In this document: positions 23,611 to 53,935 of the stretch, piece by piece
Position numbering within the stretch: position 1 is the first letter of the stretch
Layout: every line of letters starts with the position of its first letter
Assembly (NCBI GenBank): GCA_003162415.1
Contig: PMOL01000011.1
Location: 84,701-148,700, forward strand
Source of the DNA: Candidatus Dormiibacterota bacterium
Lineage (GTDB): Bacteria; Chloroflexota; Dormibacteria; Aeolococcales; Aeolococcaceae
Direction of reading: 5' to 3'
Length of the DNA: 64,000 bases
The notes under the pieces: model-generated
What the model saw: the letters and a program-made list of their open reading frames with translations, nothing else
What the model was told of the DNA's origin: nothing
The model's database searches: none
Position numbers and translations under genes: made by a program

Positions 23611-23648
23611 CTTACGTGCCCCCGGTCAGCGCGCGCCTGAGCGGCGCG

Positions 23649-23945: not shown

Positions 23946-24484
23946 GTCAGCCTCCAGTCTAGCATCGTTTCGAACGATCCCCAGGCCAGAGTCGATGGGT
24001 AAAGAGCTGGTGCCGTCGCCGGAATAATGCCAGCAAGATTGCGCGCTCGAAGTGCGATTCGGCGTTTCGTGGGCGGTGTGACTTCGATATTGCGATCGCT
24101 CGGAGGGAAGGGGTCACCAGCGCCGCCTTGAACGTAATCCTCGCCCGGGGTCGTGGACTCCGCTTCCGGCGTCAAGGCCGCATGCGCCGAGCTGGCGGCC
24201 GCCAAAGCGGCGTCAGTCAACAAGCTCGGCTTGACCCCTGCCGCGTCCGAGGTGCGGTCAGCCGATCGAGTTCTAGGTGGGCCATCAGCGGGCCTTATAC
24301 ACCCTCCTCGACACGGTCAGGCCGCACGAGATGCACATTCCGCGTGCCTCGAGCCTGCCTGACGACCCCGATCGCGCCCGCCGCATGATGTCCGATAACG
24401 GGAGGGTATCGGACGTCAGCAGCCTGGTTCGCTTTCTCCGGCCGTCCTAACGGCAACGCCGACTATGCTTCGCACGCCCGCTCT

Positions 24485-37753: not shown

Positions 37754-38005
37754 TCCTCCAGATGTACAGGGGGATCGTATCGCTGGCGACGCGATGCCCG
37801 TTCGACACGCTGGAAGGCCAATCTAGTCCGCGTCACGAGTGTCCAGGCCTCCAGAGCTATCCCCGGACATCGAAGAGCAGTCGCTCGTATCTACGCATCG
37901 GATCGCTGACGAAATCCCGCAAATACGCGCGCGCAAATGCCGAATTTCGCCACGATTGCGCGATGGAGCGCCGCTGTCCAGAACAGTGGCTGCACGTGAT
38001 TTACT

Positions 38006-38341
38006 TCAGCGCCGACGACTTCGCTCTGCACACTTGGCCCAAGCGGCTCCTTTGCCCGCTAGGGGAATATCGCGTCTCATATGCTTCAGCGCAGCTTCGT
38101 CCCGACTCGGGCGCAATCCCTTGCGGTAGTAGCAATCAGCCAGCGGCGGCGAAGTATCGACACTCAGCTTGCCGTCTGGGTGGTACTCAAGATGCCGGTT
38201 GATGGGCCGGATGCCCGTGATGGCGGCAATCAGTTCCATGACTCCCGCCGATGCCATGACCCCGTTCAGCGCCACGACCGAAGGGCTTGGTCCCAACTGT
38301 GATTGCCCGTAGATACGCTCCTCCTCAGCGAGACTCACCAC
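38006..38341 (-). pseudogene. C-terminal fragment of a ThiF/MoeB (E1-like) adenylyltransferase
   Basis: LGPSPSVVALNGVMASAGVMELIAAITG resembles the MoeB/ThiF C-terminal helix region. The Rossmann N-terminal domain is absent upstream. Confidence 0.4.
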
Positions 38342-39035
38342 AAGTACTGCAGACGGAGATCAACCTCAACAACGCCGAATCCTGGGCTGAGGCTATGAAA
38401 GCGACGGGCGACTTCGAGAGTGCTGAACAAGCAGAGTACGAACGGCTGGAGACGCTGCGCGCCTTCCATGAGGGTCGCCTGTCTATCGAGACCACACCCG
38501 ATCGTGAAGTCGCGGGAATTTTCCTCGCTTCAACAACGTCGCCGAGACGATCACACGCGGCGGATTCTCCTGGTACGTCCTGCGACCGAGCGGCGCACGG
38601 CGATTCGTACTTGGCGACGATCCAGTCGCCTTCTTTGACTCTTCTCAGCCGGAGAAGCCTGGCGGCCTCGGTTTTGCGATACCCACAGGAGAGACCACCC
38701 TGCCGATCTCACCGGCGACGTGTCTCCTCCTCAAGAACGACGGACTGGGACGCGTTGACGGTGTTCCCGCCGACGATGACCTGGTCCGGCACGTCAACCT
38801 TCGGTCGTATGCCCACGCCGACGAATGCATCTGGGGAAGCGATCTCGACACCCTCACCGGCGTGCGCAGAGACGCCAAAGCCAGTCCTGATGTGCTCCAT
38901 GCGATGAGACGACGAGATGGTGGAGCCTGGATCAGCGAGCAGGTACCCGGTGAGCCTGGGCCTATGAGTTCGAAGGCCATTTTCAAGACGGCCGGCGTCA
39001 TAGGCGTCGCGGATTCGTCGATCCGAGCCCATTAG
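38340..39035 (+). pseudogene. frameshifted ORF of unknown function (possible DUF4238-like)
   Basis: The protein-like reading frame switches at about 38520 from frame 1 (TEINLNNAESWAEAMKATGDFESAEQAEYERLETLRAFHEG...) to frame 0 (NVAETITRGGFSWYVLRPSGARRFVLGDDPVAFFD...AH*). The second part has no start codon. Confidence 0.3.
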
Positions 39036-39238
39036 GCACCGAATCGCCGCCCCTCGCCCAACCCCAGTCAGACCGGGTGCATGAGCGGCTGGCATATTCC
39101 CTCGAAGACGGTCAGCCTTTAGGGTGGTGAGATGGCCCTTGTGACCTCCCCCACCGGTAGGGCAGCCCCATGAGTTGCGTTCCCTCCGCGACCGCTTCTA
39201 CGCTCCCTCTCCACAGGAATCGGGGAAGCTAGTCACTC

Positions 39239-41659
39239 ATGGCCAAGCGAGATCTCAGCGAATCAGACATCTGCGCCAAGTTCATCACCCCCGCCCTGAT
39301 CGGCGCCGGCTGGGATGAACTCACACAGCTACGGAGGGAGATCTCCTTTACCAAGGGCCAGATCAAAGTGCGCGGCAAAATGGTGACCCGCGGAGAAGGG
39401 AAGCGCGCGGACTACATCCTCTACTTCAAACCCAACATGCCACTCGCGGTCATCGAGGCCAAGGACAACAAGCACTCCGTCGGGGACGGCATGCAACAGG
39501 CACTCGATTACGCCGAGTTCCTGCAGGTTCCCTTCGTCTTCTCATCCAACGGCGACGGCTTCGTCTTCCACGACTCGACCGGGCTCGGCGATGAGCTAGA
39601 GGCAACCTTGCCGATCGACAAGTTCCCATCCCCCCAGATGCTGTGGGCCCGCTACTGCCAGTGGAAGGGAATCACCCCCGAGGCGGAGCCGCTCGTCCTT
39701 CAGGACTACTTCGACGACGCGAGCGGTCGCTACCCGCACTACTACCAGATGAATGCGGTCAACGCCGCTGTCGAGGCGGTCGCAAAGGGTCGGGACCGCC
39801 TCCTCCTGGTCATGGCCACCGGAACCGGCAAGACGTACACCGCATTCCAGATTATCTGGCGGCTCTGGAAGGCCGGCCACAAGAAGCGGATTCTCTACCT
39901 CGCCGACCGCAATTTGCTCATCGACCAGACCATGGTCAACGACTTCCGCCCCTTCGGCGGGGTGATGGCCAAGCTGAGCACCCGGAACAAAACGATCGGC
40001 CCCGATGAGGGCCCCGAATTGAACATCAACCTTGCGATCGACAAGCACCGCCGCATAGACACTGCCTTCGAGGTTTACATGAGCCTCTACCAGGCGATCA
40101 CCGGGCCCGAGGAACGGCAGAAGCTCTTCAAAGAGTTCTCGCCAGTCTTTTTCGATCTGATCGTGATCGATGAGTGTCATCGCGGTAGTGCCGACGAGGA
40201 ATCTGCGTGGCGGGAAATCCTCGACTACTTCTCCAGCGCCACACAGATCGGCATGACCGCGACCCCCAAGGAGACCGAGTTCGTCTCCAACATCCACTAC
40301 TTCGGCGATCCCATCTACACATACTCACTGAAGCAAGGCATCCTCGACGGCTTTCTCGCGCCGTTCAAGGTCATCCGGTCTCACATCGATCTGGATGTCG
40401 GAGGCTATCGGCCGGAGCCGGGGAAGCGGGACATCGAGGGACAAGAGATCGAAGATCGCGTCTACAACCCGCGCGACTTCGAGCGGACTCTGGTAATCGA
40501 CGATCGCACCAAGTTGGTGGCTGAGCGAATCAGCGAGTTCTTACGGGAGAGCGGCGACCGCTTCCAGAAAAGCATCATCTTCTGCGTCGATCAGGAGCAC
40601 GCCGCGCGCATGCGGCAGGCGCTGATCAATGCCAACAAAGACCTGGCGACCAACCCCCGCTACGTGATGCGTATCACGGGTGGTGCCCCGGAGGGTCAGG
40701 CTCAACTTGGCAACTTCACGGATCCGGAGAGCATTTACCCGGTACTCGTGACGACGTCTCGGCTCCTGTCCACCGGTATCGATGTGCAGACCTGCAAGTT
40801 GATCGTCATCGACAAGCAGATCGAATCCATGGGCGAGTTCAAGCAGATCATCGGCCGAGGCACACGGGTTCGTGAGGATGCCCACAAGTTCTACTTCACC
40901 ATCCTGGATTTCCGCGGCGCCTCGAATCACTTCGCCGACCCGGACTTCGACGGACCCCCAATCGAGATCTACGTACCTCCGAGCGGTGGACCGATGGTTC
41001 CACCCGACGACACCGAACCACCCGAGCCCGAGCCGGGCGAGATCATCGTGTCTGAACCCCCGCCGTATTACTCAGCGGAGAAGGGCGTGGGCGGACGACC
41101 GAAGATCTACATCAACGGCGTTCCTGCACAGATCATTCACGAGACCATTCAGTACGTCGACCACGACGGCAAGCTGATCACCGAAACACTCCGCGACTAC
41201 TCGAAGCGAACCATAACGGAGCACTTCGTGAGCCTTAGTTCTTTCCTCCAGCGTTGGAGCTCGTCAGAGCGTAAACAGGCGATCGTCGAAGAGCTGTCTG
41301 CTGAATGCATCCCGCTCGAGATCCTCGCAGATGAGGTTGGCAAGGACCTCGATCCCTTCGACTTGGTCTGCTACGTGGCCTTCGGTCAACCCCCGTTGAC
41401 CCGCAAGGAGCGTGCAGACAATGTACGTAAGCGGGATGTCTTCGCCAAGTACGGGTCACAGGCGAGAGCCGTTCTTGAGGCGCTCTTGCGTAAGTACCAA
41501 GATGACGGCATTGTGGATCTCAGTGATGTACGCATTCTGCAGATCCCCCCGCTGGATCAGATGGGCACGCTTGTGCAGTTGATCAAGGGCTTCGGCTCTC
41601 GCGATCAGTTCGAGCATGCCGTCCACGAGATGCAGGCTGCGCTCTATGAGGCCGCCTGA
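39239..41659 (+). CDS. hsdR: Type I restriction enzyme R subunit (endonuclease/helicase)
   Basis: N-terminal PD-(D/E)xK nuclease (ADYILYF...VIEAKD). SF2 helicase motifs I (MATGTGKTYTA) and II (DECHRG). Confidence 0.9.
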   Translation: MAKRDLSESDICAKFITPALIGAGWDELTQLRREISFTKGQIKVRGKMVTRGEGKRADYILYFKPNMPLAVIEAKDNKHSVGDGMQQALDYAEFLQVPFVFSSNGDGFVFHDSTGLGDELEATLPIDKFPSPQMLWARYCQWKGITPEAEPLVLQDYFDDASGRYPHYYQMNAVNAAVEAVAKGRDRLLLVMATGTGKTYTAFQIIWRLWKAGHKKRILYLADRNLLIDQTMVNDFRPFGGVMAKLSTRNKTIGPDEGPELNINLAIDKHRRIDTAFEVYMSLYQAITGPEERQKLFKEFSPVFFDLIVIDECHRGSADEESAWREILDYFSSATQIGMTATPKETEFVSNIHYFGDPIYTYSLKQGILDGFLAPFKVIRSHIDLDVGGYRPEPGKRDIEGQEIEDRVYNPRDFERTLVIDDRTKLVAERISEFLRESGDRFQKSIIFCVDQEHAARMRQALINANKDLATNPRYVMRITGGAPEGQAQLGNFTDPESIYPVLVTTSRLLSTGIDVQTCKLIVIDKQIESMGEFKQIIGRGTRVREDAHKFYFTILDFRGASNHFADPDFDGPPIEIYVPPSGGPMVPPDDTEPPEPEPGEIIVSEPPPYYSAEKGVGGRPKIYINGVPAQIIHETIQYVDHDGKLITETLRDYSKRTITEHFVSLSSFLQRWSSSERKQAIVEELSAECIPLEILADEVGKDLDPFDLVCYVAFGQPPLTRKERADNVRKRDVFAKYGSQARAVLEALLRKYQDDGIVDLSDVRILQIPPLDQMGTLVQLIKGFGSRDQFEHAVHEMQAALYEAA

Positions 41660-41661
41660 TC

Positions 41662-43116
41662 GTGGCTGTTCGCAACACCGTCAAGTCGATCCAGGACATC
41701 ATGCGTCAGGATGCCGGCGTCGACGGCGATGCCCAGCGCATCTCCCAGCTCTGCTGGATGTTTTTTCTGAAGATCCTCGACGACCAGGATCAGCAGCTCG
41801 AGATCCTCGATCCTGCCTACACGTCACCGGTCCCGCCGGAACTTCGCTGGGGCGCATGGGCTGCCAACGCTGAAGGGCTCACCGGCGAGGGGCTTCTCAA
41901 GTTCATCAACGAGGATCTCTTCCCCGGCCTCAAGGGGCTTGAACTGGCTGGAGCCCAAGCCCACCGCAAGCGCGTCGTCCAAGCCGTCTTCGAGGACGCG
42001 TACAACTACATGAAGTCCGGTCAGCTGGTTCGCCAGGTGATCAACAAGATCAACGAGGTCGACTTCAACGACCTCGCAGAACGCCAGCACTTCGGCGACG
42101 TCTACGAGCAGATCCTCAACGATCTCCAGAGCGCCGGCAACGCCGGCGAGTACTACACGCCACGAGCTGTGACGGCTTTCATGGCCGAAAGGGTCGACCC
42201 CAAGCCGGGCGAGATTCTGCTCGACCCGGCGTGTGGCACCGGCGGCTTCCTCACCTGTGCGATCCGCCACATGCGTGAGAACTACGTCAAGCGCCCCGAG
42301 GACGAGGCGCTTATCCAGGGTTCACTGCGGGCCGTCGAGAAGAAGCCCCTTCCCCACATGCTCTGCACAACGAACATGCTGCTCCATGGCATAGAGGATC
42401 CAAGTTTCGTCCGCCACGACAACACCCTAGCTCGCCCCTACGTCAGCTACGGCGCTGATGACCGCGTCGACATCGTGCTCACCAACCCACCCTTCGGTGG
42501 CAAGGAAGAGCCTGGCATCGAATCCAACTTCCCCGCCCATCTTCAGACCCGTGAGACAGCAGACCTGTTCCTCGCACTCATCATGCGTCTCCTCAAGAAA
42601 GACGGACGCGCTGCGGTTGTTTTGCCTGATGGCTCCCTCTTCGGGGAGGGGGTCAAAACGCGTCTAAAGGAAGCACTACTGACTGAGTGCAACCTGCATA
42701 CCATCGTTCGCCTTCCCAACAGTGTTTTCCGTCCCTACGCGAGCATCGGCACCAACCTGCTCTTCTTCGAGAAGGGCGAGCCGACGACTGACATCTGGTT
42801 CTACGAGCATCGTGTGACCGACGGGCAGAAAGCGTACTCGATGACTAGGCCGATCCGGCTCGACCATCTTCAGCCTTGTGTGGACTGGTGGGGCGGAGCA
42901 AGCCGCGAGGGCAGAATCGAGACCGAAGTCACTTGGAAGGTCACGGCTGAAGCGATCAAGGACCGTGGATACAACCTCGATATTAAGAATCCGCATGTGC
43001 TGGCTCGCAGCCACGGCAATCCCGAAGAGTTACTGTCCCAGCTCAATGCGGCAGAAGCCACCGTAGCACTGATTCGCACCAAGCTCAAAGAACAGTTGGA
43101 AGAGGCGTTGCGTTAG
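41662..43116 (+). CDS. hsdM: Type I restriction-modification system M subunit (N6-adenine DNA methyltransferase)
   Basis: HsdM_N region, AdoMet motif I (DPACGTGGFL) and catalytic NPPFGG. Confidence 0.9.
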   Translation: MAVRNTVKSIQDIMRQDAGVDGDAQRISQLCWMFFLKILDDQDQQLEILDPAYTSPVPPELRWGAWAANAEGLTGEGLLKFINEDLFPGLKGLELAGAQAHRKRVVQAVFEDAYNYMKSGQLVRQVINKINEVDFNDLAERQHFGDVYEQILNDLQSAGNAGEYYTPRAVTAFMAERVDPKPGEILLDPACGTGGFLTCAIRHMRENYVKRPEDEALIQGSLRAVEKKPLPHMLCTTNMLLHGIEDPSFVRHDNTLARPYVSYGADDRVDIVLTNPPFGGKEEPGIESNFPAHLQTRETADLFLALIMRLLKKDGRAAVVLPDGSLFGEGVKTRLKEALLTECNLHTIVRLPNSVFRPYASIGTNLLFFEKGEPTTDIWFYEHRVTDGQKAYSMTRPIRLDHLQPCVDWWGGASREGRIETEVTWKVTAEAIKDRGYNLDIKNPHVLARSHGNPEELLSQLNAAEATVALIRTKLKEQLEEALR

Positions 43117-44678: not shown

Positions 44679-45104
44679 TTCACGTCTCGCACACCATGCG
44701 AATGACCAGTTGAACGCCCAGCGACTTTGATCTATCCCGCCACGACCTGCACGGCTAACCTAACGAGGTGAAGGTTTCATGGAACTCCGGGTGGTATTCC
44801 TGACGCGTCGTGAAAGGTGGATCCGTCTCAGCCCGGATGGGAGCCGAGGCGATGTCGTGCTTTGAGCACGATGGCCTGCTCCGTCGCCCAGATGCACTTC
44901 ATCCACGCACTCGTGAACAAGGGATTGTCGATCACGGGGCCCGGACCGGTCCGTTTCGGCGACGGGTTCCCCCCCATCCACGTCCAATACACTCGACGAC
45001 ATCCCGGTTAGGCAGGTCACCACACTCCCCTACCGACAATCATTCCGGCAGCCCGACATATCACCTAGGGCTGTATGATCGTGCTCGCGGTAGCGGGTCG
45101 GTGC

Positions 45105-45965
45105 TCAGTGACCGAACAAGCGTCGGTGGTAGGCAAGGAACTCCGGGTCAATACGGTGGCGCGGATGTCTACGTAGTAGCCCCAGGTCTGCACCCGTTTC
45201 CGCCGCCAACACCCGGTGTTCGGCGGTTATAAAGATGGCGCCTTTATCCAGTCGGACGTGGTCGTTTGGGCAAAGGCACAGCACGTTCTCCGCCACGTCT
45301 GGGCCGTTGTGCGGCATCCCCAGCGGCTTTATGTGCGCTCCCTCGGCGTAGGCAACCCCCGCCGGCAGCGCCACCTTCGTACCGCACACCTGACACGTGT
45401 AGTCGTTCAGCTGCTTCACTCCGACCGCGACCACCGTGTCTCGGACAATTCGCATCACGGTGGATGCCACGCGCTCGGGGGGCCCCGTCGGAACTGTTCC
45501 TGCCCTGTGCGGGACTGTTGCATGGTCCGTCTTGACCAAGTCAAAACGACAAATCTTCGGTCCGTCCTGGCTATCGTCCTCCCAACTCCGCACTACCGCG
45601 TACAGCCCGTCATACCGAAAGCCTTGGGTTGGCGAAAATGCCGGGTCACCCTTCGACCCGGGTATCACCCGGACAGGAAGGCCCTCCGCCTCGTTGACGC
45701 GCACGCCTTGATTGGCTTGCTCCCACACCTGGTCCTTGACCTGCCGCCCAGCGGCGTCCTGACCGCCGTAGCCGGTGTAGATGATTTCGTCGCCGTAGTC
45801 GTGGTCATCCTGGTAGCCGCCGTTAAGGACGATCGACTCGGTGCCGCGTTGCGCGCCTCCGACCATCCCGGCTTGCCGGTTGCGATGGACACCGGCAGCG
45901 ACCAGCGCCGCCCTGTCACGGTAGGCGGTGCCTGGGGGATTGCCATCGATGGCGCCGAAGGGCAT
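45105..45965 (-). CDS. SRA(YDG)-HNH modification-dependent restriction endonuclease (Type IV, ScoMcrA/TagI-like)
   Basis: N-terminal SAD/SRA domain with the YDG motif (GFRYDGLY). C-terminal HNH (CQVCG...HIKP...NVLCLCPNDH). Confidence 0.75.
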   Translation of the reverse strand: MPFGAIDGNPPGTAYRDRAALVAAGVHRNRQAGMVGGAQRGTESIVLNGGYQDDHDYGDEIIYTGYGGQDAAGRQVKDQVWEQANQGVRVNEAEGLPVRVIPGSKGDPAFSPTQGFRYDGLYAVVRSWEDDSQDGPKICRFDLVKTDHATVPHRAGTVPTGPPERVASTVMRIVRDTVVAVGVKQLNDYTCQVCGTKVALPAGVAYAEGAHIKPLGMPHNGPDVAENVLCLCPNDHVRLDKGAIFITAEHRVLAAETGADLGLLRRHPRHRIDPEFLAYHRRLFGH

Positions 45966-46050
45966 CGGCTCATACGGTAATTCCGGGCAGCCCCGCCCGG
46001 CAACAGCGAACGCCGATTCGCGGGACCGACCCCGTTCCTCGGGCCGCCAG

Positions 46051-46917
46051 TTACTTCTGAACGACGGTCCCGGATTGCGGCGCCGGCGGCGCCACCACCG
46101 TATATATAGGGGCCAACTCTGACTCGGCGACCGCGAAGATTTTCACGCCGGTGCCGGCCTCGTCGAACTTGACGACCACCTCTTCGCCCGCACGGGTCAT
46201 GGTGCTCTTCAGGATGGTCCCGTCACCGTACCTGGGGTGGCGGGCGCGCGTGCCTTCGCTGAACCGCGCCGACGCCAATTGCGCTTTCGTGGGTTTCCAG
46301 ACCACGATTGGCTCGGCGTCGCGTTCCTCGTCCTCGATCTGCACAAGGTTGCTGACGTCACGTTGCACGCTGCGCATGATCCCCAGCATCTCCTCGACCA
46401 TTTCGCCGGTATCCCGTTTCGCTGGTGGACCGTCCGGCGCGACCTTTCTGACGCCATCCAGCTGCTGTTGCAGCACGGGCCACCATTGCTCGAACGCAGC
46501 GGATACGCGCGGCTCGTCCAGGGGTTCGCTGCATGCGCCATTGATCGAACGCACCAGTCCGTGGATATCCTGCTTCGTCAGGGTGGCCATCTGGAATGTG
46601 GCAAGTGGTCCAGTTACATCGGTGGGTTTCAGGTCCACCAGCACCGGTGCAGCCCTCCCGATCGCGAAGGCCTTTGACAGGGCACCTGCCTCGAAATTCA
46701 GCCACTCAGACGACACGTTCTCCCTGGTGACGCACAGCACGCCAAAGCCGCTGTCGTCCAACTCCTTCGCGATTTCGCTCACCCACCGCGCCCCCTTGTC
46801 GATGTCTTCCGCGGAAAGGAGCGTCTGCACCGACTGCAGGACAGACGGCAGCCACGCGTGGAACGCGTCGGCCAACGCTCGGCCACCTCTACCAGACCAG
46901 GCCAGAAACACCTTCAC
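46051..46917 (-). CDS. TIR-domain protein with C-terminal UvrD-C/Tudor-like (DUF3553-like) domain
   Basis: N-terminal bacterial TIR/DUF1863 pattern (KVFLAWSG...DIDKGARW...VLCVTRENVSSEWLNFEAG). The C-terminus (RARHPRYGDGTILKS...VVVKFDEAGTGVKIFAVAESELAPI) matches the UvrD/PcrA C-terminal Tudor-like motif. Confidence 0.65.
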   Translation of the reverse strand: MKVFLAWSGRGGRALADAFHAWLPSVLQSVQTLLSAEDIDKGARWVSEIAKELDDSGFGVLCVTRENVSSEWLNFEAGALSKAFAIGRAAPVLVDLKPTDVTGPLATFQMATLTKQDIHGLVRSINGACSEPLDEPRVSAAFEQWWPVLQQQLDGVRKVAPDGPPAKRDTGEMVEEMLGIMRSVQRDVSNLVQIEDEERDAEPIVVWKPTKAQLASARFSEGTRARHPRYGDGTILKSTMTRAGEEVVVKFDEAGTGVKIFAVAESELAPIYTVVAPPAPQSGTVVQK

Positions 46918-47195
46918 AGGCTGATTCTAGCTTCGGCCGGTCGGCGCCCCAAGTGGCCGACCGCTGCGGGCGCGGCCCGAACGGGGATTCACCGCGTACA
47001 GGGCGTTCTTCGCCGCTCAACCCGGTTTCTTCGTCAAGCACCCGGTCCTGGACGGTGCCGCGCGACCCGAAACCGTCGGAATGTGCCCCGCTATACCCGC
47101 CATCGGTCCACCGGTCCCCAACGATCGCCCCTCGGCGGTGGTACGGGGTCGTCAGCGCCCCACGATGATTCAGCGGCGCCGCGCCGGTTAGGCTG

Positions 47196-47918
47196 GTGAC
47201 CCCGATGATCTTTGAACGCCACGGCCAGTTACCCGCTTGCCGCTTGACCCAACAGGACCTCAGCAACCTTGGGGACATTTTTCAGGCGGTCCAGAAAGCG
47301 ACGAACGCCACGGGCGTCTACAAGATCGAAACCCCGTGGGGCACCTATTCCGCGGACAAGCTGAGTCTTCAGAGTCCCTCGTATGCGCCCCGTGACGTCG
47401 TCCGCCTCGAAATGACGCTTCAGTGGGCGGACGGGAACGCACGTCTGACGCTCGACCTTGACGTGCGCCCGTTCCGTGATGCACCTGGTGCTCCTGTCGA
47501 CCGCAGTTGGCTGGCGGTCGAAGGGCAGGAAGAAGTCGTAAGGCCCCTGTGGCGCGATGTCATGGACGTCATTGATCGTCGTCGGTCCGTCATGGGCGCC
47601 ATCCTCAGTTCGCCGAATGTGCAGATACTCGGTCTAATCGTCGCGATCGTCGCCGGGATACTCCTCCCGTACTACACGCTGAAGAAAGCGCGGGTCAACG
47701 ACTCGGCGATTCTGCCAGTGATCGTTGCAACCGCACTCGTCGCTGGGCTGATCTACCTTGCAGTCCTCGTCCCCGCCGGCGCCGCCCGCGTGCAGGTGGC
47801 CGGATGGGGAAGGCTGTCAAGCACACGCGGACGGGTCGCCTTTTGGGCGGTGACCGTTTTCGCGGGAGTCGTCGTGTGGGCGGTTACCCTTCTCCTCACC
47901 TTCTGGCTGTCGAAGTAG
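47196..47918 (+). CDS. hypothetical membrane protein (about 150-aa soluble N-domain plus three C-terminal TM helices)
   Basis: Hydrophobic segments (ILGLIVAIVAGILL, ILPVIVATALVAGLIYLAVLV, VAFWAVTVFAGVVVWAVTLLLTFWL). No recognisable domain. It is transcribed divergently from the TIR gene. Confidence 0.5.
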   Translation: MTPMIFERHGQLPACRLTQQDLSNLGDIFQAVQKATNATGVYKIETPWGTYSADKLSLQSPSYAPRDVVRLEMTLQWADGNARLTLDLDVRPFRDAPGAPVDRSWLAVEGQEEVVRPLWRDVMDVIDRRRSVMGAILSSPNVQILGLIVAIVAGILLPYYTLKKARVNDSAILPVIVATALVAGLIYLAVLVPAGAARVQVAGWGRLSSTRGRVAFWAVTVFAGVVVWAVTLLLTFWLSK

Positions 47919-47936
47919 CCGGCTGTCGCCGAAGCG

Positions 47937-49040
47937 CTAGTTGGGTCCCAGACCGCTGACCACGACCAGGCCTGCAGGGATCGACACGCCGCAGTCGAAC
48001 CTCGACACGACCAGGAGTCCGGTCTGGTCATTCGCCGCATATGTCTCCAGCAGGATCCGCATGTAACCGACCAGGTCGATTGCCACGAAGACCGTTCGCG
48101 GATCGACCAGCAGCGCAGTCGCGTTCGGCAGCGTTCCAGCTGGTGCTGGGACGACCGTGCGACCCAGGATCTGCTCAGCGCCCTGCACGGTCAGGTCAGG
48201 CGACAGCAGCGACCTTCCCAGTGTGTCGGTCAATTTGCGCAGCGTTCCGATGGTCTGCGCGTTGACGACCCAGAACTTCGGGTCGGCGTAGGCGTCCTGT
48301 GCCGCTGTCAGCGCGTCGGTCATCTGCGCCAGGATCGACTCGCCGACTGTGATCGTCAGCGTGACGCCACCGCCAGTTGCGGTCGCCGCGGCGCTGATGA
48401 CGGCGGTCGTGGCATTGGTGACGCTGGCCATGGTCGCGCCGGCGGGAATGCCCGCGCCGCTGATACTGCTGCCGACGTCGGCACTGGTGAACGCTGCGGT
48501 CGCGGACGTGATCGTCGTGGTGCTGTTCAGTACGCCGTCAGCAACGAAGCGCGAATGCTTGATCACCGTGGCGGCCTTCGGGATCAGACCGGTGATGCCA
48601 GCGGTTGCGTCGCCGTTGAACAGCGCCTTGTCGACCTGCTTGCGCAGCAGGTTCGTGATCGCGAACTGCGACGCTGTCAGCGCCGCGCTCGACCGCATCG
48701 ACTCGTTCGAAATCCGAACCATGACCTTCAGCGCGCGCAGGTCGCGGCCCATCGGTACCAGCTCGGACGTCGCGCCCTCGAATTCCGGCACGTCGCCGTT
48801 CGGCTCCACCCACACGCTCTCGTCGACGACCTGCTCGGCCATGCGCGGGATGTGTAGCGGGTGGTTGGTCTGCACTGCCTGCACACCGGGCATTGACATG
48901 ATCACCCTGTCCGCCATAAGCGGCGTGACGACGATCCCCAACCACTCCTCGGGCGTCAGTTCGGACCCGGCGCCAAGTACTGCTGGGGATAGGGCTGGCG
49001 TGACGGTCACCTCGTGATGTGTCACCCGATGTGGGCACAC
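47937..49040 (-). CDS. phage major capsid protein, HK97 fold
   Basis: Length and motifs are typical of HK97-family capsid proteins (...PEEW..., C-terminal LLVDPRTVFVAIDLVGYMRILLETYAANDQTGLLVVSRFDCGV). No other structural genes are adjacent. Confidence 0.7.
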   Translation of the reverse strand: MCPHRVTHHEVTVTPALSPAVLGAGSELTPEEWLGIVVTPLMADRVIMSMPGVQAVQTNHPLHIPRMAEQVVDESVWVEPNGDVPEFEGATSELVPMGRDLRALKVMVRISNESMRSSAALTASQFAITNLLRKQVDKALFNGDATAGITGLIPKAATVIKHSRFVADGVLNSTTTITSATAAFTSADVGSSISGAGIPAGATMASVTNATTAVISAAATATGGGVTLTITVGESILAQMTDALTAAQDAYADPKFWVVNAQTIGTLRKLTDTLGRSLLSPDLTVQGAEQILGRTVVPAPAGTLPNATALLVDPRTVFVAIDLVGYMRILLETYAANDQTGLLVVSRFDCGVSIPAGLVVVSGLGPN

Positions 49041-49167
49041 GCGCTGATCACGGGCTCTGTCCCAGCGCCCTTAGACGGCCATCCCGGCTCCGTCAGCTTG
49101 CGCCGAACTGCTGCACCCCGGATCGTCCGAACGGTTAGCCATTGTCGAGCAGCACCGTCCGGTCGTC

Positions 49168-50322
49168 CTACGCCTCGCCGATGCCCGCTTCTGCAGCGGC
49201 CTTTAGCCAACGACGGGCCTGGCCCAGCTCCGCCGGGTCGAGCAAGGTGGCGAGCGGCTGCCCGAGGTTGTACTGGGCGAAGGGGTCACCGCCCTCGGCA
49301 GCCGCTGTCAACCAGCGTCGAGCCTCGTCCAGGTCGGGCCGGTCGAGTTCGGTGGCCCACATCCCGAGGCAGTACTGGGCGTGGGCGTTGCCGGCTTCGG
49401 CGGCGGACGTGAACCAGCGGCGGGCCTCGTCACGATCGGGCCGGGTCGCGCCAAAGTGCGAGCACCCCGAGGGTAGTCCTTGGCGTCGGTGTGACCGGCC
49501 GCGGCGGCAGCGGTGAACCAGCGGCGGGCCTCGTCGACCTCGGGCGGGTAGAACCGGAAGGCGAGCAGCCGCCCGAAGCGGTATTGAGCGTCAGTGTCAC
49601 CGGCTTCGGCGGCCGACGTGAACCAACGGCGGGCCTCGTCGCGCTCGGGCCTGTCGGGCCGAAGGAGCAGCCACCCGAGGTAGGTCTGGGCGGCGACGTA
49701 GCCGGCTTCGGCGGCGGCCGTGAACCAGCGGCGCGCCTCCTCCAGATAAGGCGGGTCGAGTTGGGTGACGAGCAGCTGCCCGAGCCTGTACGGGGCATCG
49801 ACGACACCGGCTTCGGCGGCGGCCGTGAACCAGCGGCGAGCCTCGTCGACCTCGGGCGGGCTGAGCAACGTGGCTAGCAGCCACCCGAGGTGGGTCTGGG
49901 CGGCGACGTCACCGGCTTCGGCGGCGACCGTGAACCAAACGGCGAGCCTCCCCGAGCTCGGGTGGGTCGAGTTGGGTGGCGAGCAGCACCCCGAGGTGGA
50001 TCTGGGCGGAGACCCGGCCGGCTTCGGCGGCGGCGGTGAACCAACGGCGAGCCTCCTCGAGCTCGGCAGGGTCGAGTTGCGTGGGTTCGCTCACCGGAGC
50101 ATCATGTGCGCTCACTGCGACAGGTGGGTGTCGCCGTGCTCTGGTGGCTCGGCGCCGAGTCAAGGTGGTCGGTCGGAGCGAGATGATCACGTCGCACGTG
50201 GTTCGCGTCATCTGGATCGCCAGCAGACTTACGGCGTCACAGCCTCCCTGGCAGTCCCGAACGGGTTGCTCCTTTCGGGCTTGCACGGCCCTCCGAAACG
50301 CCCGAAGGTCCTTCCAAATCAC
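49168..50322 (-). pseudogene. Sel1-like repeat (SLR/TPR-like) protein gene, disrupted by at least two frameshifts
   Basis: Three consecutive minus-strand ORF pieces in different frames (49909-50322, 49308-49868, 49168-49362). Each encodes repeats of about 35 aa of the form EARRWFTAAAEAG..AQY.LG.LL. Confidence 0.5.
49200..50100. repeat. imperfect tandem repeat, period 105 bp, about 8 copies (encodes the Sel1-like repeats)
   Basis: The motif gtgaaccagcggcg(g/a)gcctcgtc recurs at about 49305, 49410, 49515, 49620, 49725, 49830, 49935 and 50040. Confidence 0.6.
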
Positions 50323-50377
50323 GCTGACATCCGATATCCGATAGTTATTGGAAGCCAGCTGATCTAGACTCCGACTC

Positions 50378-51457
50378 GTGCGGGATTACGCCCTCCTGCT
50401 CGTCGACGGGCATCTGCGCCCGCCACCCCCCGATCCAACGATCTGGGTCAGTTCCGCGCATGGCATTGAGCAGGTCGTCAAGGTTCATCTGACGCAGGCT
50501 GCCGACGTCCCGGCCGAGCCTGCGGACGTCGCGGCCGAGATGCGGAAGTTGCAGCTGCAGATCTTGATGACGAAGGCGTCGAGCACACTGCGGGCCTACC
50601 TCACCGATCTCCGAGACTTCAACGCGTACTGTCAAGCGCAGGGGTCGACGGCGCTGCCTGCGGCGCCAGAGACGATCGCCCGTTACCTCGCTACTCTCGT
50701 CGAACGCGGCTACAAGCCGTCAACGATCTTGCGCCGGCGAGCATCTATCGCGAGGGCGCACCGGCTCGCCGGCCACCGCTTCTCCGAGATAGCCGATACG
50801 TTGGTTCGGCCGCTCCTCGGCACTCTCCGACGACAGATGCAATTTTCCGCGAAAAAGCCGGCGCTGGACGTCACCACCCTGCGGCGGATGCTGCGAGCCA
50901 CCCCGCAGCGGACTGCGGCTGGCGCCCGAGACCGGCTCATGCTCTTGCTTGGTTTCGCCGGCGGACTCAGGGCGAGTGAGTTGATCGCCCTTGACGTCAG
51001 AGACATCCACGTGACCGACCAGCATCTACGGCTTCTGCTCCCGGACGCACGCACCGGCTCGTGGTACGTCGCGCGCGAGGTCGCTATTCCCCGCGGCGAA
51101 CATCCGGAAACCTGCTCCGTGCGCGCAATTCGGGCCTGGTACGCGATCAGTGATATCCATAGCGGGGCCCTCTTCCGGCCCATCGACCGCCATGGTCGGG
51201 TGGGAGCAACACGGCTCAGCGCCCGCGCGGTGGCGCTCGTGATCAAGCGAGCAGCCCAAGGCGCCGGCATCGATCCGACGCTCTACGCCGGCCACTCGTT
51301 GCGCGCCGGCTTCGTGACTGCGGCGCTGGCGGGTGGCGCCCCGGAGCGCGTCATCGTTGTGCAGACAGGGCTTCACTCGCTGTCGGGTGTGCCCCGCTAC
51401 CTTCGTCGCAGACGGAGTCGGCTCGACAGGGACGCCGCAGCCTATTTGGGGCTGTGA
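50378..51457 (+). CDS. tyrosine-type site-specific recombinase (XerC/D-like phage integrase family)
   Basis: N-terminal SAM-like core-binding domain, then a catalytic domain with R...HSLR...Y (AGHSLRAGFVTAA...VPRYLR). The real start may be downstream, at the Met at about 50540-50567. Confidence 0.75.
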   Translation: MRDYALLLVDGHLRPPPPDPTIWVSSAHGIEQVVKVHLTQAADVPAEPADVAAEMRKLQLQILMTKASSTLRAYLTDLRDFNAYCQAQGSTALPAAPETIARYLATLVERGYKPSTILRRRASIARAHRLAGHRFSEIADTLVRPLLGTLRRQMQFSAKKPALDVTTLRRMLRATPQRTAAGARDRLMLLLGFAGGLRASELIALDVRDIHVTDQHLRLLLPDARTGSWYVAREVAIPRGEHPETCSVRAIRAWYAISDIHSGALFRPIDRHGRVGATRLSARAVALVIKRAAQGAGIDPTLYAGHSLRAGFVTAALAGGAPERVIVVQTGLHSLSGVPRYLRRRRSRLDRDAAAYLGL

Positions 51458-51736
51458 GGGCCCCCTGACTAGCCTCAAACGTAACCGCGCTTCAAGAGCG
51501 TCCGACCCAGCGCCACGAGTCTCAACACCCTCGTCACTCGCTGGTGCATCCCGTCGCCTCCCCGAGGAAGGACGAAGGCGGATCTCAATCTCGGCGTGAA
51601 TCTGGCGAACGGTACCTCGCGTTGCCGTAGGTACATAGATGAGTGACTGGTAGCTCGCGCAACGCGATGGGGGGATTCCTCCGCCTCGCTGATTGGCTCC
51701 GCCACCCGGCCACGATCGCTGTGCTGGGGCGCGTCC

Positions 51737-51940
51737 TCATCGGCCTTCCGATCGAAGTGCCTCGATGTATTGATCGAGGTCGCTCACGGCAACGCGGACG
51801 GCTCGCCCAAGCTTCACCCGCGGGAGTTCGCCTCGGGCCAGGAGCCGTTCGACGTGGCGCCGACTACAGCTCAAATAGATCGCCGCGTCGCTCAGGGTCA
51901 CCAACCGACGGCACGTCGGTACGTCGAGTCCATTCGCCAC
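51737..51940 (-). CDS. excisionase/MerR-like HTH DNA-binding protein
   Basis: A 67-aa helix_turn_helix_17-type protein (LSDAAIYLSCSRRHVERLLARGELP). It lies immediately upstream of the integrase in the same orientation. Confidence 0.7.
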   Translation of the reverse strand: MANGLDVPTCRRLVTLSDAAIYLSCSRRHVERLLARGELPRVKLGRAVRVAVSDLDQYIEALRSEGR

Positions 51941-52089
51941 CGACTTTCTCCACGACCTGTCTTCAAACAGTCGCTGCAGCGAGTGGAGAGGCGGTGCGTC
52001 ATCGGGGCGGTCATTCCCCGATGGAGCTCAGTTGGCGACAGCTAGAAAATACACCCCGTTGTGGTGCCGTGTCAAAGGAGCCAAACGAC

Positions 52090-53259
52090 TCAAGCGAAGA
52101 CCCCGTTCAACGCCTCCGCGGCGCTGCGTTGCATGGTCTCGGTCACGTGCGAATAGAGGTCCAGGGTGACCGCAACGGTTGCGTGCCCAAGCATCTCGCT
52201 GGCCACCTTCGGGTGCACGCCGCGGCTCAACATGAGGGTCGCCGCGGTGTGGCGCAGATCATGGAAGCGGATGGGAGGGAGCGCTGAGCGACGCAGCAGA
52301 GCCTTGAACTGTTCGGTCAGACGCGACGCGTGCAGGTAACCACCCGTCGCGCTGCAGAACACGAGATCGCGGTCCTGCCAGACATTGGCGGCGGCAACCC
52401 GTTCAGCGACCCACGCGCTGCGCCGCTGGCGCAAAGCATCGAGCGCGACCGCGGTGAGTTCGACGCGGCGACGCGATCGTCGCGTCTTCGGCTCGGTCGA
52501 CTCCAAGTGCGAGCGTGGAACCCCCGGATCTCTGGCGAGCCGCCGCGGCGTGTAGACGCGGACCAGGCTCCCCGTCACCGCCAAAGAGCCACCGTCCAGG
52601 TCGACGTCGGACCAGCGCAGCGCGAGCAGCTCGCCCTGGCGGAGACCTGCGGTCACGGCCAGCACGTAGAGCGCCTCCAGACGGTCGCCCACGACGGCGT
52701 CAACCAGTCGCCGGGCCTGCTCGGGCGAGAGGACGGACATGTCGCGGTGGGTCACCCGCGGGGGGTCGACGAGCCCAGCAATGTTGGTGGGAAGCACGCG
52801 CCAGCGGACGGCCTGTTGGAGCGCTCGATGGAGGGTCGCATGGCTCCGCTTGACCGTCGCTGGACTCAGGCCCCGATCCAGGAGCGCAGCGTACGCACGT
52901 TGGACATCTCCGGGGCCCAGCCGCTCCAACCAGAGCCGACCGAGATGCGGAATCAGGTGCAGCCTGACCTGTTCCTCGTAGCGGTCCCACGTGCGCGGTT
53001 TTAAGGACGGCCGGACACCGTCGAGCCAGTCCATGAGGTATGACGCGACGGTCTGTCGCCTCGGCAGCGGCGTGAGTCCACTGTCGCGATTGCGGGTTGC
53101 GTCGCGGAGCTTCTGGGCGGCCTCGTGGCGGGTCTTGCCGTACACCGCTTTCCGGCTCACACGGCCCGTGGCATCGGTCGTCACGTAGCGAGCCTGCCAG
53201 CGCCCATCCGGCAGCGGCCGCGACCCGACCGTCCCCTCGCCGGCGGTACGTTTCCTCAT
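52090..53259 (-). CDS. tyrosine-type integrase (phage integrase family)
   Basis: N-terminal arm/SAM-like domains (GRWQARYVTTDATGR...). The catalytic domain carries the R, HxxR and Y residues (RHTAATLM...LGHATVAVTLDLYSHV). The start is MRKRTAGEG at 53259, adjacent to the tRNA 3' end. Confidence 0.85.
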   Translation of the reverse strand: MRKRTAGEGTVGSRPLPDGRWQARYVTTDATGRVSRKAVYGKTRHEAAQKLRDATRNRDSGLTPLPRRQTVASYLMDWLDGVRPSLKPRTWDRYEEQVRLHLIPHLGRLWLERLGPGDVQRAYAALLDRGLSPATVKRSHATLHRALQQAVRWRVLPTNIAGLVDPPRVTHRDMSVLSPEQARRLVDAVVGDRLEALYVLAVTAGLRQGELLALRWSDVDLDGGSLAVTGSLVRVYTPRRLARDPGVPRSHLESTEPKTRRSRRRVELTAVALDALRQRRSAWVAERVAAANVWQDRDLVFCSATGGYLHASRLTEQFKALLRRSALPPIRFHDLRHTAATLMLSRGVHPKVASEMLGHATVAVTLDLYSHVTETMQRSAAEALNGVFA

Positions 53260-53388
53260 GCCCTCGACGATACGCCGATTGGCATCGATTGGCATCACCA
53301 TTGGCATCAGTTGCCCAAAATGGCCCGGCAAGGCCGCCGTGTTGCGGTCGCAGCCGGACGCGAAATCCCTTATGCTGTATGAGAAATC

Positions 53389-53479
53389 CGGAGCGAGAGG
53401 GATTCGAACCCTCGATACCGCTTGACGCGGTATACCGCATTTCCAGTGCGGCGCCCTCGGCCAACTAGGCGATCGCTCC
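53389..53479 (-). tRNA. tRNA-Ser (anticodon GGA)
   Basis: Cloverleaf with a 7-bp acceptor stem (GGAGCGA/TCGCTCC), a 3-bp D stem, the anticodon loop CUGGAAA, a long variable arm and the T arm GGTTCGAATCC. CCA is not encoded. Confidence 0.8.
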
Positions 53480-53824: not shown

Positions 53825-53913
<89 letters not shown>

Positions 53914-53935
53914 ACGGACGAAGTCGCGCGCGGCG

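What the first reader, a model, noticed from the sequence alone, without database searches (positions are those of the whole stretch)
37754..53479. A 15.7-kb integrase-bounded island at tRNA-Ser(GGA) carrying stacked defence systems
The tyrosine integrase gene (52090-53259) begins 130 bp from the 3' end of a minus-strand tRNA-Ser, which is the classic tRNA-targeted integration geometry. An excisionase lies beside it. Leftwards the island carries a second recombinase, a lone capsid gene, the TIR module, the SRA-HNH gene and hsdRMS, and it ends in decayed genes before the catabolic core resumes at about 37.75 kb. I could not find the distal att direct repeat by eye.
Basis: partly seen in the sequence, partly recalled or inferred. 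Interest (0 to 1): 0.6.

Follow-up and report, generated by a model that had tools for sequence, protein, structure and literature searches.

The report
Decayed satellite relic plus defence genes
Next to a serine tRNA gene in an uncultured soil bacterium (Dormibacterota) lies foreign DNA made of the worn-down remains of a small capsid-carrying mobile element plus three anti-phage defence systems; it is an ordinary kind of defence island, but its left edge and its ability to move are not established.

Summary
The listed genes are all present: tRNA-Ser(GGA), a catalytically complete tyrosine integrase 129 nt from the tRNA 3' end, an HTH_17 excisionase, a second recombinase, an HK97 capsid gene, a TIR protein, a TagI-like SRA-HNH enzyme, a complete type I R-M operon and pseudogene debris.

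About 20 related Dormibacterota genomes lose synteny with the window at the tRNA 3' end, so the right junction is real and the site is a hypervariable integration hotspot.

The 15.7-kb single-island reading is not established:
- No copy of the tRNA end exists within 62.8 kb to the left, whereas relatives carry 27- to >=45-nt copies.
- The supposed "catabolic core" is not conserved either. Its amidohydrolase has no full-length homologue above 68% identity.
- Composition shows no step at 37.75 kb.

The "lone capsid" has an explanation. Integrase, excisionase and capsid are the only survivors of a 7-8.5 kb element family (recombinase, xis, AAA_25 replication protein, scaffold, capsid, small terminase). 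Intact members sit between att repeats at other tRNAs or inside comM. These look like minimal phage satellites.

The defence genes lie where that element's distal end should be. The locus is best read as a decayed satellite relic plus accreted defence genes, probably immobile.

The parts
53389..53479 (-). tRNA-Ser(GGA). Its 3' end is the integration target and the right junction of the variable region.
   Evidence: ARAGORN and Rfam. Synteny with about 20 relatives ends at 53358-53390. Relatives carry copies of this 3' end flanking inserted DNA, from 12-13 nt up to at least 45 nt.
53277..53388 (.). att-proximal arm. It holds three tandem GATTGGCATC repeats (53277-53308) between the integrase start and the tRNA. 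An imperfect hairpin (about 53362-53388) abuts the tRNA end.
   Evidence: Read directly from the sequence. The segment is nearly identical in L007. Related (A/G)TTGG(G/C) tandem repeats occur at the same distance from the tRNA in 14 of 22 relatives. Two or more copies occur in 11 of 22, against 0.8% of background segments. Reading them as integrase arm sites is inference.
52090..53259 (-). Tyrosine integrase, 389 aa, intact.
   Evidence: Pfam and PHROG integrase at 4e-73. Catalytic residues R207, K258, H333, R336, H359 and Y369 are present. It is 96% identical to the integrase at the same tRNA in L007 and 46-54% identical to those of L105, L022 and L008. Against L007, omega is 0.07 and dS is 0.30, while core genes give dS 0.61-0.96.
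51737..51940 (-). Excisionase / HTH_17 regulator, 67 aa.
   Evidence: Precomputed Pfam HTH_17 and PHROG excisionase families. It is 50-60% identical to the xis-like genes of capsid-element family members L106 and L108.
50378..51457 (+). Second, XerC/D-like tyrosine recombinase on the opposite strand. It is not part of the capsid-element family.
   Evidence: Pfam Phage_integrase plus SAM_1. The catalytic Lys column holds Glu. It has no homologue in any fetched locus.
49168..50322 (-). Sel1-repeat gene of about nine 35-aa repeats, broken by two frameshifts. It is a pseudogene, or the repeats were mis-assembled.
   Evidence: Pfam Sel1. The DNA shows a 105-nt periodicity. Three-frame translation shows the repeats continuing across frames. 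A short-read contig ends inside it at 49731.
47937..49040 (-). HK97-type major capsid gene, full length. It is a relic of a 7-8.5 kb capsid-encoding integrative element.
   Evidence: Pfam and PHROG major head protein. About 24 near-full-length homologues at 45-79% identity. Similarity to the family is confined to about 47930-49090.
47205..47918 (+). 237-aa protein of unknown function, divergent from the TIR gene. By eye its C-terminal third has three hydrophobic, transmembrane-like segments.
   Evidence: It was called as a gene in independent assemblies. It has no Pfam, PADLOC or PHROG match. The hydrophobic segments were read by eye from the translation; no transmembrane predictor was run.
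46051..46917 (-). TIR-domain protein, 288 aa, with a Tudor-like C-terminal domain.
   Evidence: Pfam TIR_2. The PADLOC 'TIR-TM' model matches at 1e-66 over the TIR part only. phrog_13899 matches at 2e-62. The C-terminus matches the PcrA/UvrD Tudor domain weakly. No partner gene of a known TIR system is nearby.
45105..45965 (-). SRA-HNH modification-dependent (type IV) restriction endonuclease, TagI-like.
   Evidence: Pfam SAD_SRA 9e-37 plus HNH. It matches TagI (PDB 6GHS) over its full length, E = 1e-76. TagI biochemistry is described in PMC6212794.
39239..44678 (+). Complete type I restriction-modification operon, hsdR-hsdM-hsdS, with abutting or overlapping reading frames.
   Evidence: Pfam. 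PADLOC REase_I scores 1073 bits, MTase_I 3e-210 and Specificity_I 3e-63, with two target-recognition domains in HsdS. This is the lowest-GC and least core-like part of the region.
37754..39238 (.). Non-coding or pseudogene debris. It includes a 5'-truncated DUF4238 gene at 38538-39032(+) and a short ORF at 38006-38341(-).
   Evidence: The Pfam DUF4238 match covers only profile positions 183-278 of 281. The other ORFs have no family match.
53825..53913 (+). tRNA-Ser(CGA), divergent from tRNA-Ser(GGA). This is context and not part of the island.
   Evidence: ARAGORN. The two tRNA 3' ends form a 26-nt, 85% complementary inverted repeat.

Best explanation
The 3' end of tRNA-Ser(GGA) is an attachment site used repeatedly by one family of tyrosine integrases in Dormibacterota.

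In this genome a small capsid-encoding, satellite-like integrative element inserted there. Its normal gene set is recombinase, excisionase, AAA_25 replication protein, scaffold, HK97 capsid and small terminase, in 7-8.5 kb. Its integrase lies next to the tRNA.

The element then decayed. The replication, scaffold and terminase genes and the distal att site are gone. A second recombinase and a now-frameshifted Sel1 gene sit between excisionase and capsid.

Three defence modules lie where the element's distal end should be:
- a TIR protein, presumably an NAD-consuming abortive-infection effector;
- a TagI-like enzyme that cuts 5mC/5hmC-modified DNA;
- a type I R-M system that cuts unmodified DNA.

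Gene debris follows these. Together the modules form a layered barrier against both modified and unmodified phage DNA. As a unit the region has no partner att site, so it is probably fixed in place, even though integrase and excisionase remain intact.

Shown: gene identities, the right junction, hotspot behaviour, absence of attL, family membership of integrase, excisionase and capsid, and a transfer of the integrase module more recent than the host split.

Inferred: the order of events, that the family are phage satellites, that the defence genes arrived separately, and all biochemical activities.
For: - Right junction and hotspot: about 20 relatives align with the window only from 53358-53390 rightwards. 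Their left flanks differ from the window and from each other.
- Genuine att scars at this tRNA in relatives: copies of the tRNA end of 27 to at least 45 nt in L012, L047 and L040. L015 and L025 have 12-13-nt copies with matching flanking sequence. These copies carry the downstream hairpin or a different tRNA allele.
- Conserved tandem repeats beside the tRNA, even in loci that have lost the integrase.
- Integrase: the catalytic hexad is intact. Against L007, omega is 0.07 and dS is 0.30, while seven flanking core genes give dS 0.61-0.96. The closer relatives L004 and L042 lack the gene. Similarity to L007 stops exactly at the integrase stop codon.
- Capsid family, L105: an 8.46-kb element between perfect 27-nt repeats of the tRNA-Leu end. 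It encodes integrase, xis, AAA_25, scaffold, capsid and Terminase_4.
- Capsid family, L106: a 7.16-kb element between 58-nt repeats of tRNA-Arg.
- Capsid family, L108/L109: about 7.7 kb splitting comM, with a serine recombinase.
- Capsid family, L102: a serine-recombinase version.
- The window shares only integrase (46%), excisionase (50-60%) and capsid (57-79%) with the family. Nothing else matches.
- Defence genes are intact.
- Tetranucleotide correlation with core DNA is 0.94-0.95 for 48-54 kb but 0.83-0.89 for 38-48 kb.
Against: - No boundary separates the relic from the defence genes. No att scar, repeat or transposase lies between them. Separate acquisition therefore rests on composition and on the small size of intact family members.
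- The capsid gene is full length in an otherwise gutted element, which simple decay does not predict.
- No helper phage, virion or packaged DNA is known for the family. A capsid-profile scan of IMG/VR found no full-length relative. 'Satellite' is therefore an inference from gene content.
- In L105 the integrase points towards the tRNA, whereas here it points away from it.
- Only five neighbourhoods of capsid homologues were examined.
Confidence: 0.6

Rival explanations
1. One intact 15.7-kb integrative island (37754-53388) can still be excised by its integrase and excisionase. Its attL is too short or too diverged to recognise.
For: - Integrase and excisionase are intact and selected.
- All mobility and defence genes lie within these limits.
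- Pseudogene debris lies at the proposed left end.
- To the left, only metabolic genes are annotated.
Against: - No match to the tRNA end appears at 37.7-39.3 kb or anywhere else. The best 26-mer has 9 mismatches. The two anchored 10-mers lack flank similarity and are consistent with chance, P = 0.16.
- Relatives at this same site, and intact relatives of the element, use repeats of 27-58 nt.
- Composition differs within the segment and does not change at 37.75 kb.
- Integrase, excisionase and capsid derive from an element family of only 7-8.5 kb.
Confidence: 0.1
2. The variable region is much larger, at least 53-63 kb. The low-GC metabolic blocks to the left belong to the same accreted or transferred region anchored at the tRNA, and the true distal end lies beyond the window.
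For: - None of the window's genes left of the tRNA is found within 8 kb of the tRNA in any relative.
- The flank of the closest relative, L004, is absent from the 62.8 kb examined.
- Gene GC3 is 0.59-0.80 across 1-45 kb, against 0.82-0.89 for the right flank.
- Low GC continues at least 9.4 kb beyond the window start.
- The amidohydrolase has no full-length homologue above 68% identity.
- tatAC is an isolated 1.15-kb core-like patch out of its usual context.
Against: - No integrase, transposase, relaxase, secretion or phage gene is annotated between -9.4 and 37.7 kb.
- No att copy exists there.
- Lack of synteny could equally reflect rearrangement or independent gene gain unrelated to the integrase.
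Confidence: 0.2
3. The junctions are assembly or binning artefacts of a metagenome-assembled genome. The segments are not truly contiguous.
For: - The source is a MAG.
- Short-read contigs from one run break at about 4.05 kb, 22.9-24.4 kb and 49.7 kb.
- The Sel1 array is repetitive.
Against: - The same order is found in a 156.7-kb ENA contig and a 25-kb Logan contig covering 24.4-49.7 kb. The proteins also sit on a 1.01-Mb NCBI contig.
- The integrase-tRNA junction is reproduced in another species, L007.
Confidence: 0.05

Closest known systems
tRNA-associated genomic / defence islands with a P4-type tyrosine integrase
   Same: The integrase sits beside the 3' end of a tRNA with an excisionase next to it. 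The content is strain-specific and absent from relatives, and several defence systems cluster together.
   Different: There is no flanking direct repeat and no defined distal end. The locus is a mosaic of a decayed element plus other genes, so mobility as a unit is not supported.
Phage satellites: PICI and capsid-forming PICI (SatelliteFinder definitions, PMC10085698)
   Same: Intact relatives of the window's integrase, excisionase and capsid are small integrative elements. They are 7.2-8.5 kb, lie between att repeats or split comM, and carry a recombinase, regulator/xis, replication protein, scaffold, capsid and small terminase. They have no tail or lysis genes. Satellites are known carriers of defence genes (PMC9122126).
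   Different: cfPICI also require portal, head-tail adaptor and connector, large terminase, protease and HNH. None of these was seen in the family. PICI normally lack a major capsid gene. The window copy also lacks the replication gene and terS. No helper phage or packaging is known.
TagI and the SRA-HNH modification-dependent restriction enzymes (PMC6212794)
   Same: The match to TagI (PDB 6GHS) is full length, E = 1e-76. The SRA and HNH domains are in the same order and the protein is a similar length.
   Different: Activity and modification preference are untested. This is a Dormibacterota homologue.
Type I restriction-modification systems (EcoEI/EcoR124-like hsdRMS operons)
   Same: All three subunits are present with the expected domains and two target-recognition domains in HsdS. 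The reading frames abut or overlap.
   Different: Nothing unusual was seen. Specificity is unknown.
Bacterial TIR defence effectors (Thoeris ThsB; the proteins behind PADLOC's 'TIR-TM' model)
   Same: The N-terminal 190 residues match the PADLOC TIR-TM model at 1e-66. The usual Glu-containing motif (WLNFEAG) is visible by eye.
   Different: There is no ThsA, reverse transcriptase or msr/msd RNA, cyclase or fused membrane segment. The C-terminus is instead a weak Tudor-like domain. A separate protein with hydrophobic C-terminal segments is encoded divergently.

Membership tests
Integrase-mediated tRNA genomic island | Insertion at the 3' end of a tRNA gene, with the tRNA left intact | tested here: met
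   tRNA-Ser(GGA) is intact. Synteny with relatives ends at 53358-53390.
Integrase-mediated tRNA genomic island | Tyrosine integrase with catalytic residues R-K-H-R-H-Y next to the junction | tested here: met
   R207, K258, H333, R336, H359 and Y369 are present. Pfam and PHROG both match.
Integrase-mediated tRNA genomic island | Direct repeat of the tRNA 3' end (attL/attR) bounding the element | tested here: not met
   There is none within 62.8 kb. Positive controls in relatives were detected by the same approach.
Integrase-mediated tRNA genomic island | Content absent from the same site in related genomes | tested here: met
   No island gene except integrase homologues occurs in the 45 related loci.
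Integrase-mediated tRNA genomic island | Composition distinct from both flanks | tested here: inconclusive
   The region is distinct from the right flank only. The integrase-proximal 48-54 kb is nearly core-like, and the left flank is as atypical as the island.
Defence island | Several independent defence systems clustered together | tested here: met
   A complete type I R-M system, a TagI-like type IV enzyme and a TIR protein lie within 7.7 kb.
Type I restriction-modification | HsdR, HsdM and HsdS are all present and full length | tested here: met
   Pfam and PADLOC matches cover the full profiles.
SRA-HNH modification-dependent endonuclease (TagI family) | N-terminal SRA domain fused to a C-terminal HNH nuclease, homologous to TagI | tested here: met
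   Residues 3-282 align to TagI 7-300, E = 1e-76.
SRA-HNH modification-dependent endonuclease (TagI family) | Cleavage that depends on 5mC/5hmC | not testable with these tools
   This needs enzyme assays.
Capsid-forming PICI | Integrase plus regulator (AlpA/xis-like) | tested here: met
Capsid-forming PICI | Primase-replicase | tested here: not met
   There is no AAA_25 or primase homologue in 37-53.6 kb. It is present in intact family members.
Capsid-forming PICI | Portal, head-tail adaptor and connector, large terminase, protease and HNH | tested here: not met
   None is present in the window. No gene in the L105, L106 or L108 elements carries a Pfam hit for these functions. The only ORFs above 310 aa there are recombinase, AAA_25 and capsid.
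Capsid-forming PICI | Small terminase | tested here: not met
   It is absent from the window. It is present in L105 and L107.
Prophage | Tail, lysis, portal and large terminase genes | tested here: not met
   There are no such Pfam or PHROG hits in 37-53.6 kb.
Integrative conjugative element | Relaxase, coupling protein and type IV secretion genes | tested here: not met
   None appears among the precomputed Pfam annotations from -9.4 to 61 kb.
Thoeris / retron TIR systems | Partner gene: ThsA, or a reverse transcriptase with msr/msd RNA | tested here: not met
   There are no such PADLOC or Pfam hits in neighbouring genes. Rfam finds only the two tRNAs.

The most novel reading that the evidence does not exclude
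The integrase-excisionase-capsid relic points to an undescribed family of minimal, capsid-encoding phage satellites in the uncultured phylum Dormibacterota. Members are 7-8.5 kb and carry a tyrosine or serine recombinase, xis, an AAA_25 replication protein, scaffold, HK97 capsid and small terminase, but no portal or large terminase. They integrate at tRNAs or in comM.

In this genome one copy has been immobilised, yet it keeps an intact capsid gene and a selected integrase beside a defence cluster. The retained capsid or integrase might therefore be domesticated. For example, the capsid could interfere with helper-phage assembly, or the integrase could capture incoming DNA at the tRNA hotspot.
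Probability: 0.3. Interest if true: 0.6.

Novelty: new member of a known kind. Interest (0 to 1): 0.35.

Why it matters
As a defence island at a tRNA hotspot, this is an expected feature of bacterial genomes and adds little beyond an example from a poorly studied phylum.

Two things give it some value.
- It shows how an integrase next to a tRNA can mislead. Here the integrase marks a real integration site but not a bounded, mobile island.
- Chasing the odd "lone capsid" exposed a set of small, att-bounded, capsid-plus-terminase elements in Dormibacterota. These look like phage satellites. No phage or satellite has been isolated for this phylum, and the paper search returned none.

If confirmed, those elements would give a handle on phage-host-satellite biology in an abundant, uncultured soil lineage.

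Tried and rejected
- att search. I ran exact k-mers, BLAST-short, mismatch-tolerant scans of 26-45-mers and a hairpin-plus-tRNA-end motif, over the window plus 9.4 kb further left. Nothing was found. Two 10-nt matches at 50174 and 3946 were rejected: they have no flank similarity and P = 0.16.
- Generic repeat search of 36-54 kb. It found only the Sel1 periodicity and the tRNA-tRNA inverted repeat.
- Exact-protein look-ups of the ABC transporter and integrase failed because the start codons were called differently.
- A metagenome scan with the amidohydrolase, meant to find an 'empty site', gave only one short close relative, which was uninformative about the right side.
- IMG/VR scans with capsid, integrase and a capsid profile found no close relatives. 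Only the capsid's insertion domain (residues about 150-250) matched.
- Using tatC as a left-hand core anchor failed. In a close relative it sits in a different neighbourhood.
- The idea of a second mobile-element hotspot after tRNA-Ser(CGA) was dropped. The variable segments there are shared by sub-lineages at core-like identity and have no repeats.
- Retron, Thoeris, ICE, prophage and phase-variable hsdS readings were considered and rejected because the partner genes are missing.
- A paper search for PADLOC's 'TIR-TM' label found nothing.


Full report
**Source and approach.** The window comes from a metagenome-assembled Candidatus Dormibacterota genome. It corresponds to ENA contig k141_112646, positions 92157-156156, and its proteins also sit on a 1.01-Mb NCBI contig. 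I checked each listed feature. I then used 45 related Dormibacterota loci, fetched through the ABC-transporter gene just right of the tRNAs, to test the island's limits.

**Observation check.**
- ARAGORN and Rfam confirm tRNA-Ser(GGA) at 53389-53479(-) and tRNA-Ser(CGA) at 53825-53913(+).
  - HsdR, HsdM and HsdS at 39239-44678, complete;
  - the SRA-HNH protein at 45105-45965, a full-length homologue of the characterised enzyme TagI (PDB 6GHS, E = 1e-76; PMC6212794);
  - a TIR protein at 46051-46917 (PADLOC 'TIR-TM' 1e-66 over the TIR part);
  - an HK97-type capsid gene at 47937-49040;
  - a second tyrosine recombinase at 50378-51457;
  - an HTH_17 excisionase at 51737-51940;
  - the integrase at 52090-53259, starting 129 nt from the tRNA 3' end.
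- The integrase carries R207, K258, H333, R336, H359 and Y369.
- The stretch 37754-39238 is indeed debris. It contains a DUF4238 gene that lacks its first ~180 profile positions.
- The Sel1 ORFs at 49168-50322 are one gene of about nine repeats, broken by two frameshifts.

**Right junction and hotspot.**
- In every related locus that reaches the tRNA (about 20), nucleotide similarity to the window runs from the right end of the window down to 53358-53390 and then stops.
- The left flanks of these relatives match neither the window nor, with minor exceptions, each other.
- Those flanks hold unrelated genes. Examples are GGDEF/EAL signalling proteins, transporters, a histidine kinase, a CLC channel and, in L007, other mobile-element genes.
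- Several relatives keep true integration scars. L012, L047 and L040 have copies of the tRNA 3' end of 27 to at least 45 nt, lying 3.7-6.1 kb away.
- L015 and L025 have 12-13-nt copies with matching flanks. The distal copies carry the hairpin that follows the tRNA, or a different tRNA allele.
- Tandem (A/G)TTGG(G/C) repeats lie 70-95 nt from the tRNA end in 14 of 22 relatives. Two or more copies occur in 11 of 22, against 0.8% of background segments. This includes loci with no integrase.
- In the window and L007 the repeats appear as three GATTGGCATC units between the integrase start and the tRNA. I read these as integrase arm sites and as scars of repeated integration; that reading is inference.

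**The integrase is mobile and selected.**
- L007 carries a 96%-identical integrase at the same tRNA. Similarity ends exactly at the integrase stop codon, and the cargo beyond it is different.
- Between the window and L007, the integrase has dS = 0.30 and omega = 0.07. Seven flanking core genes have dS of 0.61-0.96.
- The closer relatives L004 and L042 (core dS 0.28-0.50) have no integrase there.
- The integrase module therefore entered the two lineages after they split, and it has stayed under purifying selection.

**No distal att and no defined left end.**
- No copy of the tRNA end exists in the window or in 9.4 kb beyond its left edge. No exact match reaches 14 nt, and the best 26-mer has 9 mismatches. 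Two anchored 10-mers have no flank similarity and are consistent with chance, P = 0.16.
- The DNA left of 37.75 kb is not conserved core. The amidohydrolase at 36533-37753 has no full-length homologue above 68% identity among 5.8 billion proteins, apart from its own sequence; one 143-residue metagenome fragment reaches 87%. The right-flank ABC transporter, in contrast, has dozens of relatives at 84-97%.
- None of the left-hand genes lies near this tRNA in any relative.
- The one core-like gene pair, tatAC, has many orthologues at 80-97% identity. Here it is an isolated 1.15-kb patch (22816-23970, 92% nucleotide identity). In a close relative it sits between the heme-biosynthesis genes and RNase PH.
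- Gene GC3 is 0.82-0.89 to the right of the tRNAs and 0.59-0.83 everywhere to the left.
- Tetranucleotide correlation with core DNA is 0.97-0.98 on the right. It is 0.94-0.95 at 48-54 kb, 0.83-0.89 at 38-48 kb and 0.80-0.95 further left. There is no step at 37.75 kb.
- No mobility gene is annotated between -9.4 and 37.7 kb.
- The 15.7-kb figure is therefore the span of recognisable mobile and defence genes, not a demonstrated element.

**What the 'lone capsid' is.** The capsid has about 24 near-full-length homologues at 45-79% identity, one of them annotated as coming from Dormibacteria. Five neighbourhoods were examined.
- L105: a tRNA-Leu(GAG) and a perfect 27-nt repeat of its end bound an 8.46-kb element. 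It encodes a tyrosine integrase, a 190-aa protein, HTH_17, AAA_25, four small genes, capsid, Terminase_4 and further small genes.
- L106: a tRNA-Arg(ACG) with a 58-nt repeat bounds 7.16 kb. It holds integrase fragments, a xis-like gene and the capsid.
- L108/L109: about 7.7 kb splits the comM/ChlI gene and carries a serine recombinase.
- L102: another serine-recombinase version.
- L107: a relic with scaffold, capsid and terS between two tRNAs, with a type I hsdR nearby.

PHROGs assigns the gene upstream of the capsid to head scaffolding. It assigns AAA_25 to primase/helicase-like replication proteins and Terminase_4 to small terminases. These are small, bounded, mobile units. They carry a capsid, scaffold and small terminase but no portal, large terminase, tail or lysis genes. 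That gene set is satellite-like. It does not meet the cfPICI definition in PMC10085698.

The window shares exactly three genes with the family, in a compatible order and spacing:
- integrase, 46% identical to that of L105;
- excisionase, 50-60% identical to those of L106 and L108;
- capsid.

The scaffold, the conserved ~75-aa gene, AAA_25 and terS are all absent from 37-53.6 kb. In intact members the distal att lies 1.7-2.4 kb beyond the capsid. Here that would be about 45.5-46.2 kb, inside the TIR/SRA-HNH genes.

**Best explanation.** A capsid-encoding, satellite-like element integrated at tRNA-Ser(GGA) and decayed. A second recombinase and a Sel1 gene now occupy its middle. Three defence modules and gene debris occupy and extend beyond its distal end.

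Functionally, the region is a layered defence cluster:
- type I R-M acts against unmodified DNA;
- the TagI-like enzyme acts against cytosine-modified DNA;
- the TIR protein probably acts as an abortive-infection effector.

These activities are inferred from homology alone. Without a partner att site the region is probably fixed in place. I put this explanation at about 0.6.

**Novelty and score.** A tRNA-linked defence island is a known kind of feature, and this is a new, partly decayed member of it. The more interesting by-product is the capsid-bearing element family in an uncultured phylum. The paper search returned no description of it, and IMG/VR holds no full-length relative by pattern scan. 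Interest overall is 0.35.

Noticed in passing
window 22816-23970: tatA-tatC is a 1.15-kb core-like patch (GC3 0.88, 92% nucleotide identity to relative L110) lying between unrelated low-GC3 metabolic blocks. In the relative, tatAC lies between heme-biosynthesis genes and RNase PH. Short-read contigs break on both sides of it (22912 and 24390). It may be a second copy, a rearrangement or an assembly join.
   Followed up: partly
window 1-22800 and at least 9.4 kb further left (L079 1-9413): This is a block of at least 32 kb of metabolic and transport genes with GC 0.57-0.61 and GC3 0.59-0.70. The conserved right flank has GC3 0.82-0.89. The block may be a large horizontally acquired metabolic region, with no mobility genes annotated.
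   Followed up: partly
L105 5012-13475; L106 5844-13001; L108 about 8568-16297; L102 about 5100-12700: This is a family of 7-8.5 kb integrative elements in Dormibacterota-type contigs. They encode a recombinase (tyrosine or serine), xis/HTH, AAA_25, a scaffold-like protein, an HK97 capsid and, in some members, a small terminase. L105 and L106 lie between 27- and 58-nt tRNA-end repeats; L108 splits comM. They are candidate minimal phage satellites.
   Followed up: partly
L108 8546-9271: One family member carries a Hypoth_Ymh protein at its end. The protein weakly matches a PADLOC HEPN model ('Aga_HEPN', 3e-9). This suggests these small elements can carry a defence-type gene.
   Followed up: no
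window 47937-49040, capsid residues about 150-250: The capsid contains a Thr/Ser/Ala-rich insertion domain. This domain alone matches many unrelated-length proteins and IMG/VR contigs. It is probably a surface or decoration domain shared among phage structural proteins.
   Followed up: no
window 46051-46917 and 47205-47918: The TIR protein ends in a weak PcrA/UvrD-type Tudor-like domain, not the membrane segment of the PADLOC 'TIR-TM' model. A family-less 237-aa protein with three hydrophobic C-terminal segments (read by eye) is encoded divergently 288 bp away. The two may form a two-gene module.
   Followed up: no
window 53913-53935 versus relatives (for example L016 1550-9204, L038 5348-9224): The interval after tRNA-Ser(CGA) is 22 bp in the window but 1-8.8 kb in relatives. 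The extra segments are shared within sub-lineages at 80-92% identity and have no tRNA-end repeats. They look like lineage-specific gene blocks, not mobile elements.
   Followed up: partly
L007 1-7365: The relative with the 96%-identical integrase carries different cargo: a second integrase with HTH_17, a YaaC-like protein, a DNA methylase fragment, a NikA-like protein and a Mutator-family transposase. The integrase module is therefore shared while the cargo is swapped.
   Followed up: partly
protein P0145: One capsid homologue is annotated with Phage_capsid plus two HNH domains in a single 356-aa protein. This is an unusual fusion, or a gene-calling artefact.
   Followed up: no
L105 5047-5074 and 13343-13370: A 28-nt sequence (TTTGACCCCTTAAGTGACCCCTTAAGGG) is repeated just inside both ends of the 8.46-kb element. 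These are likely integrase arm-type sites.
   Followed up: no
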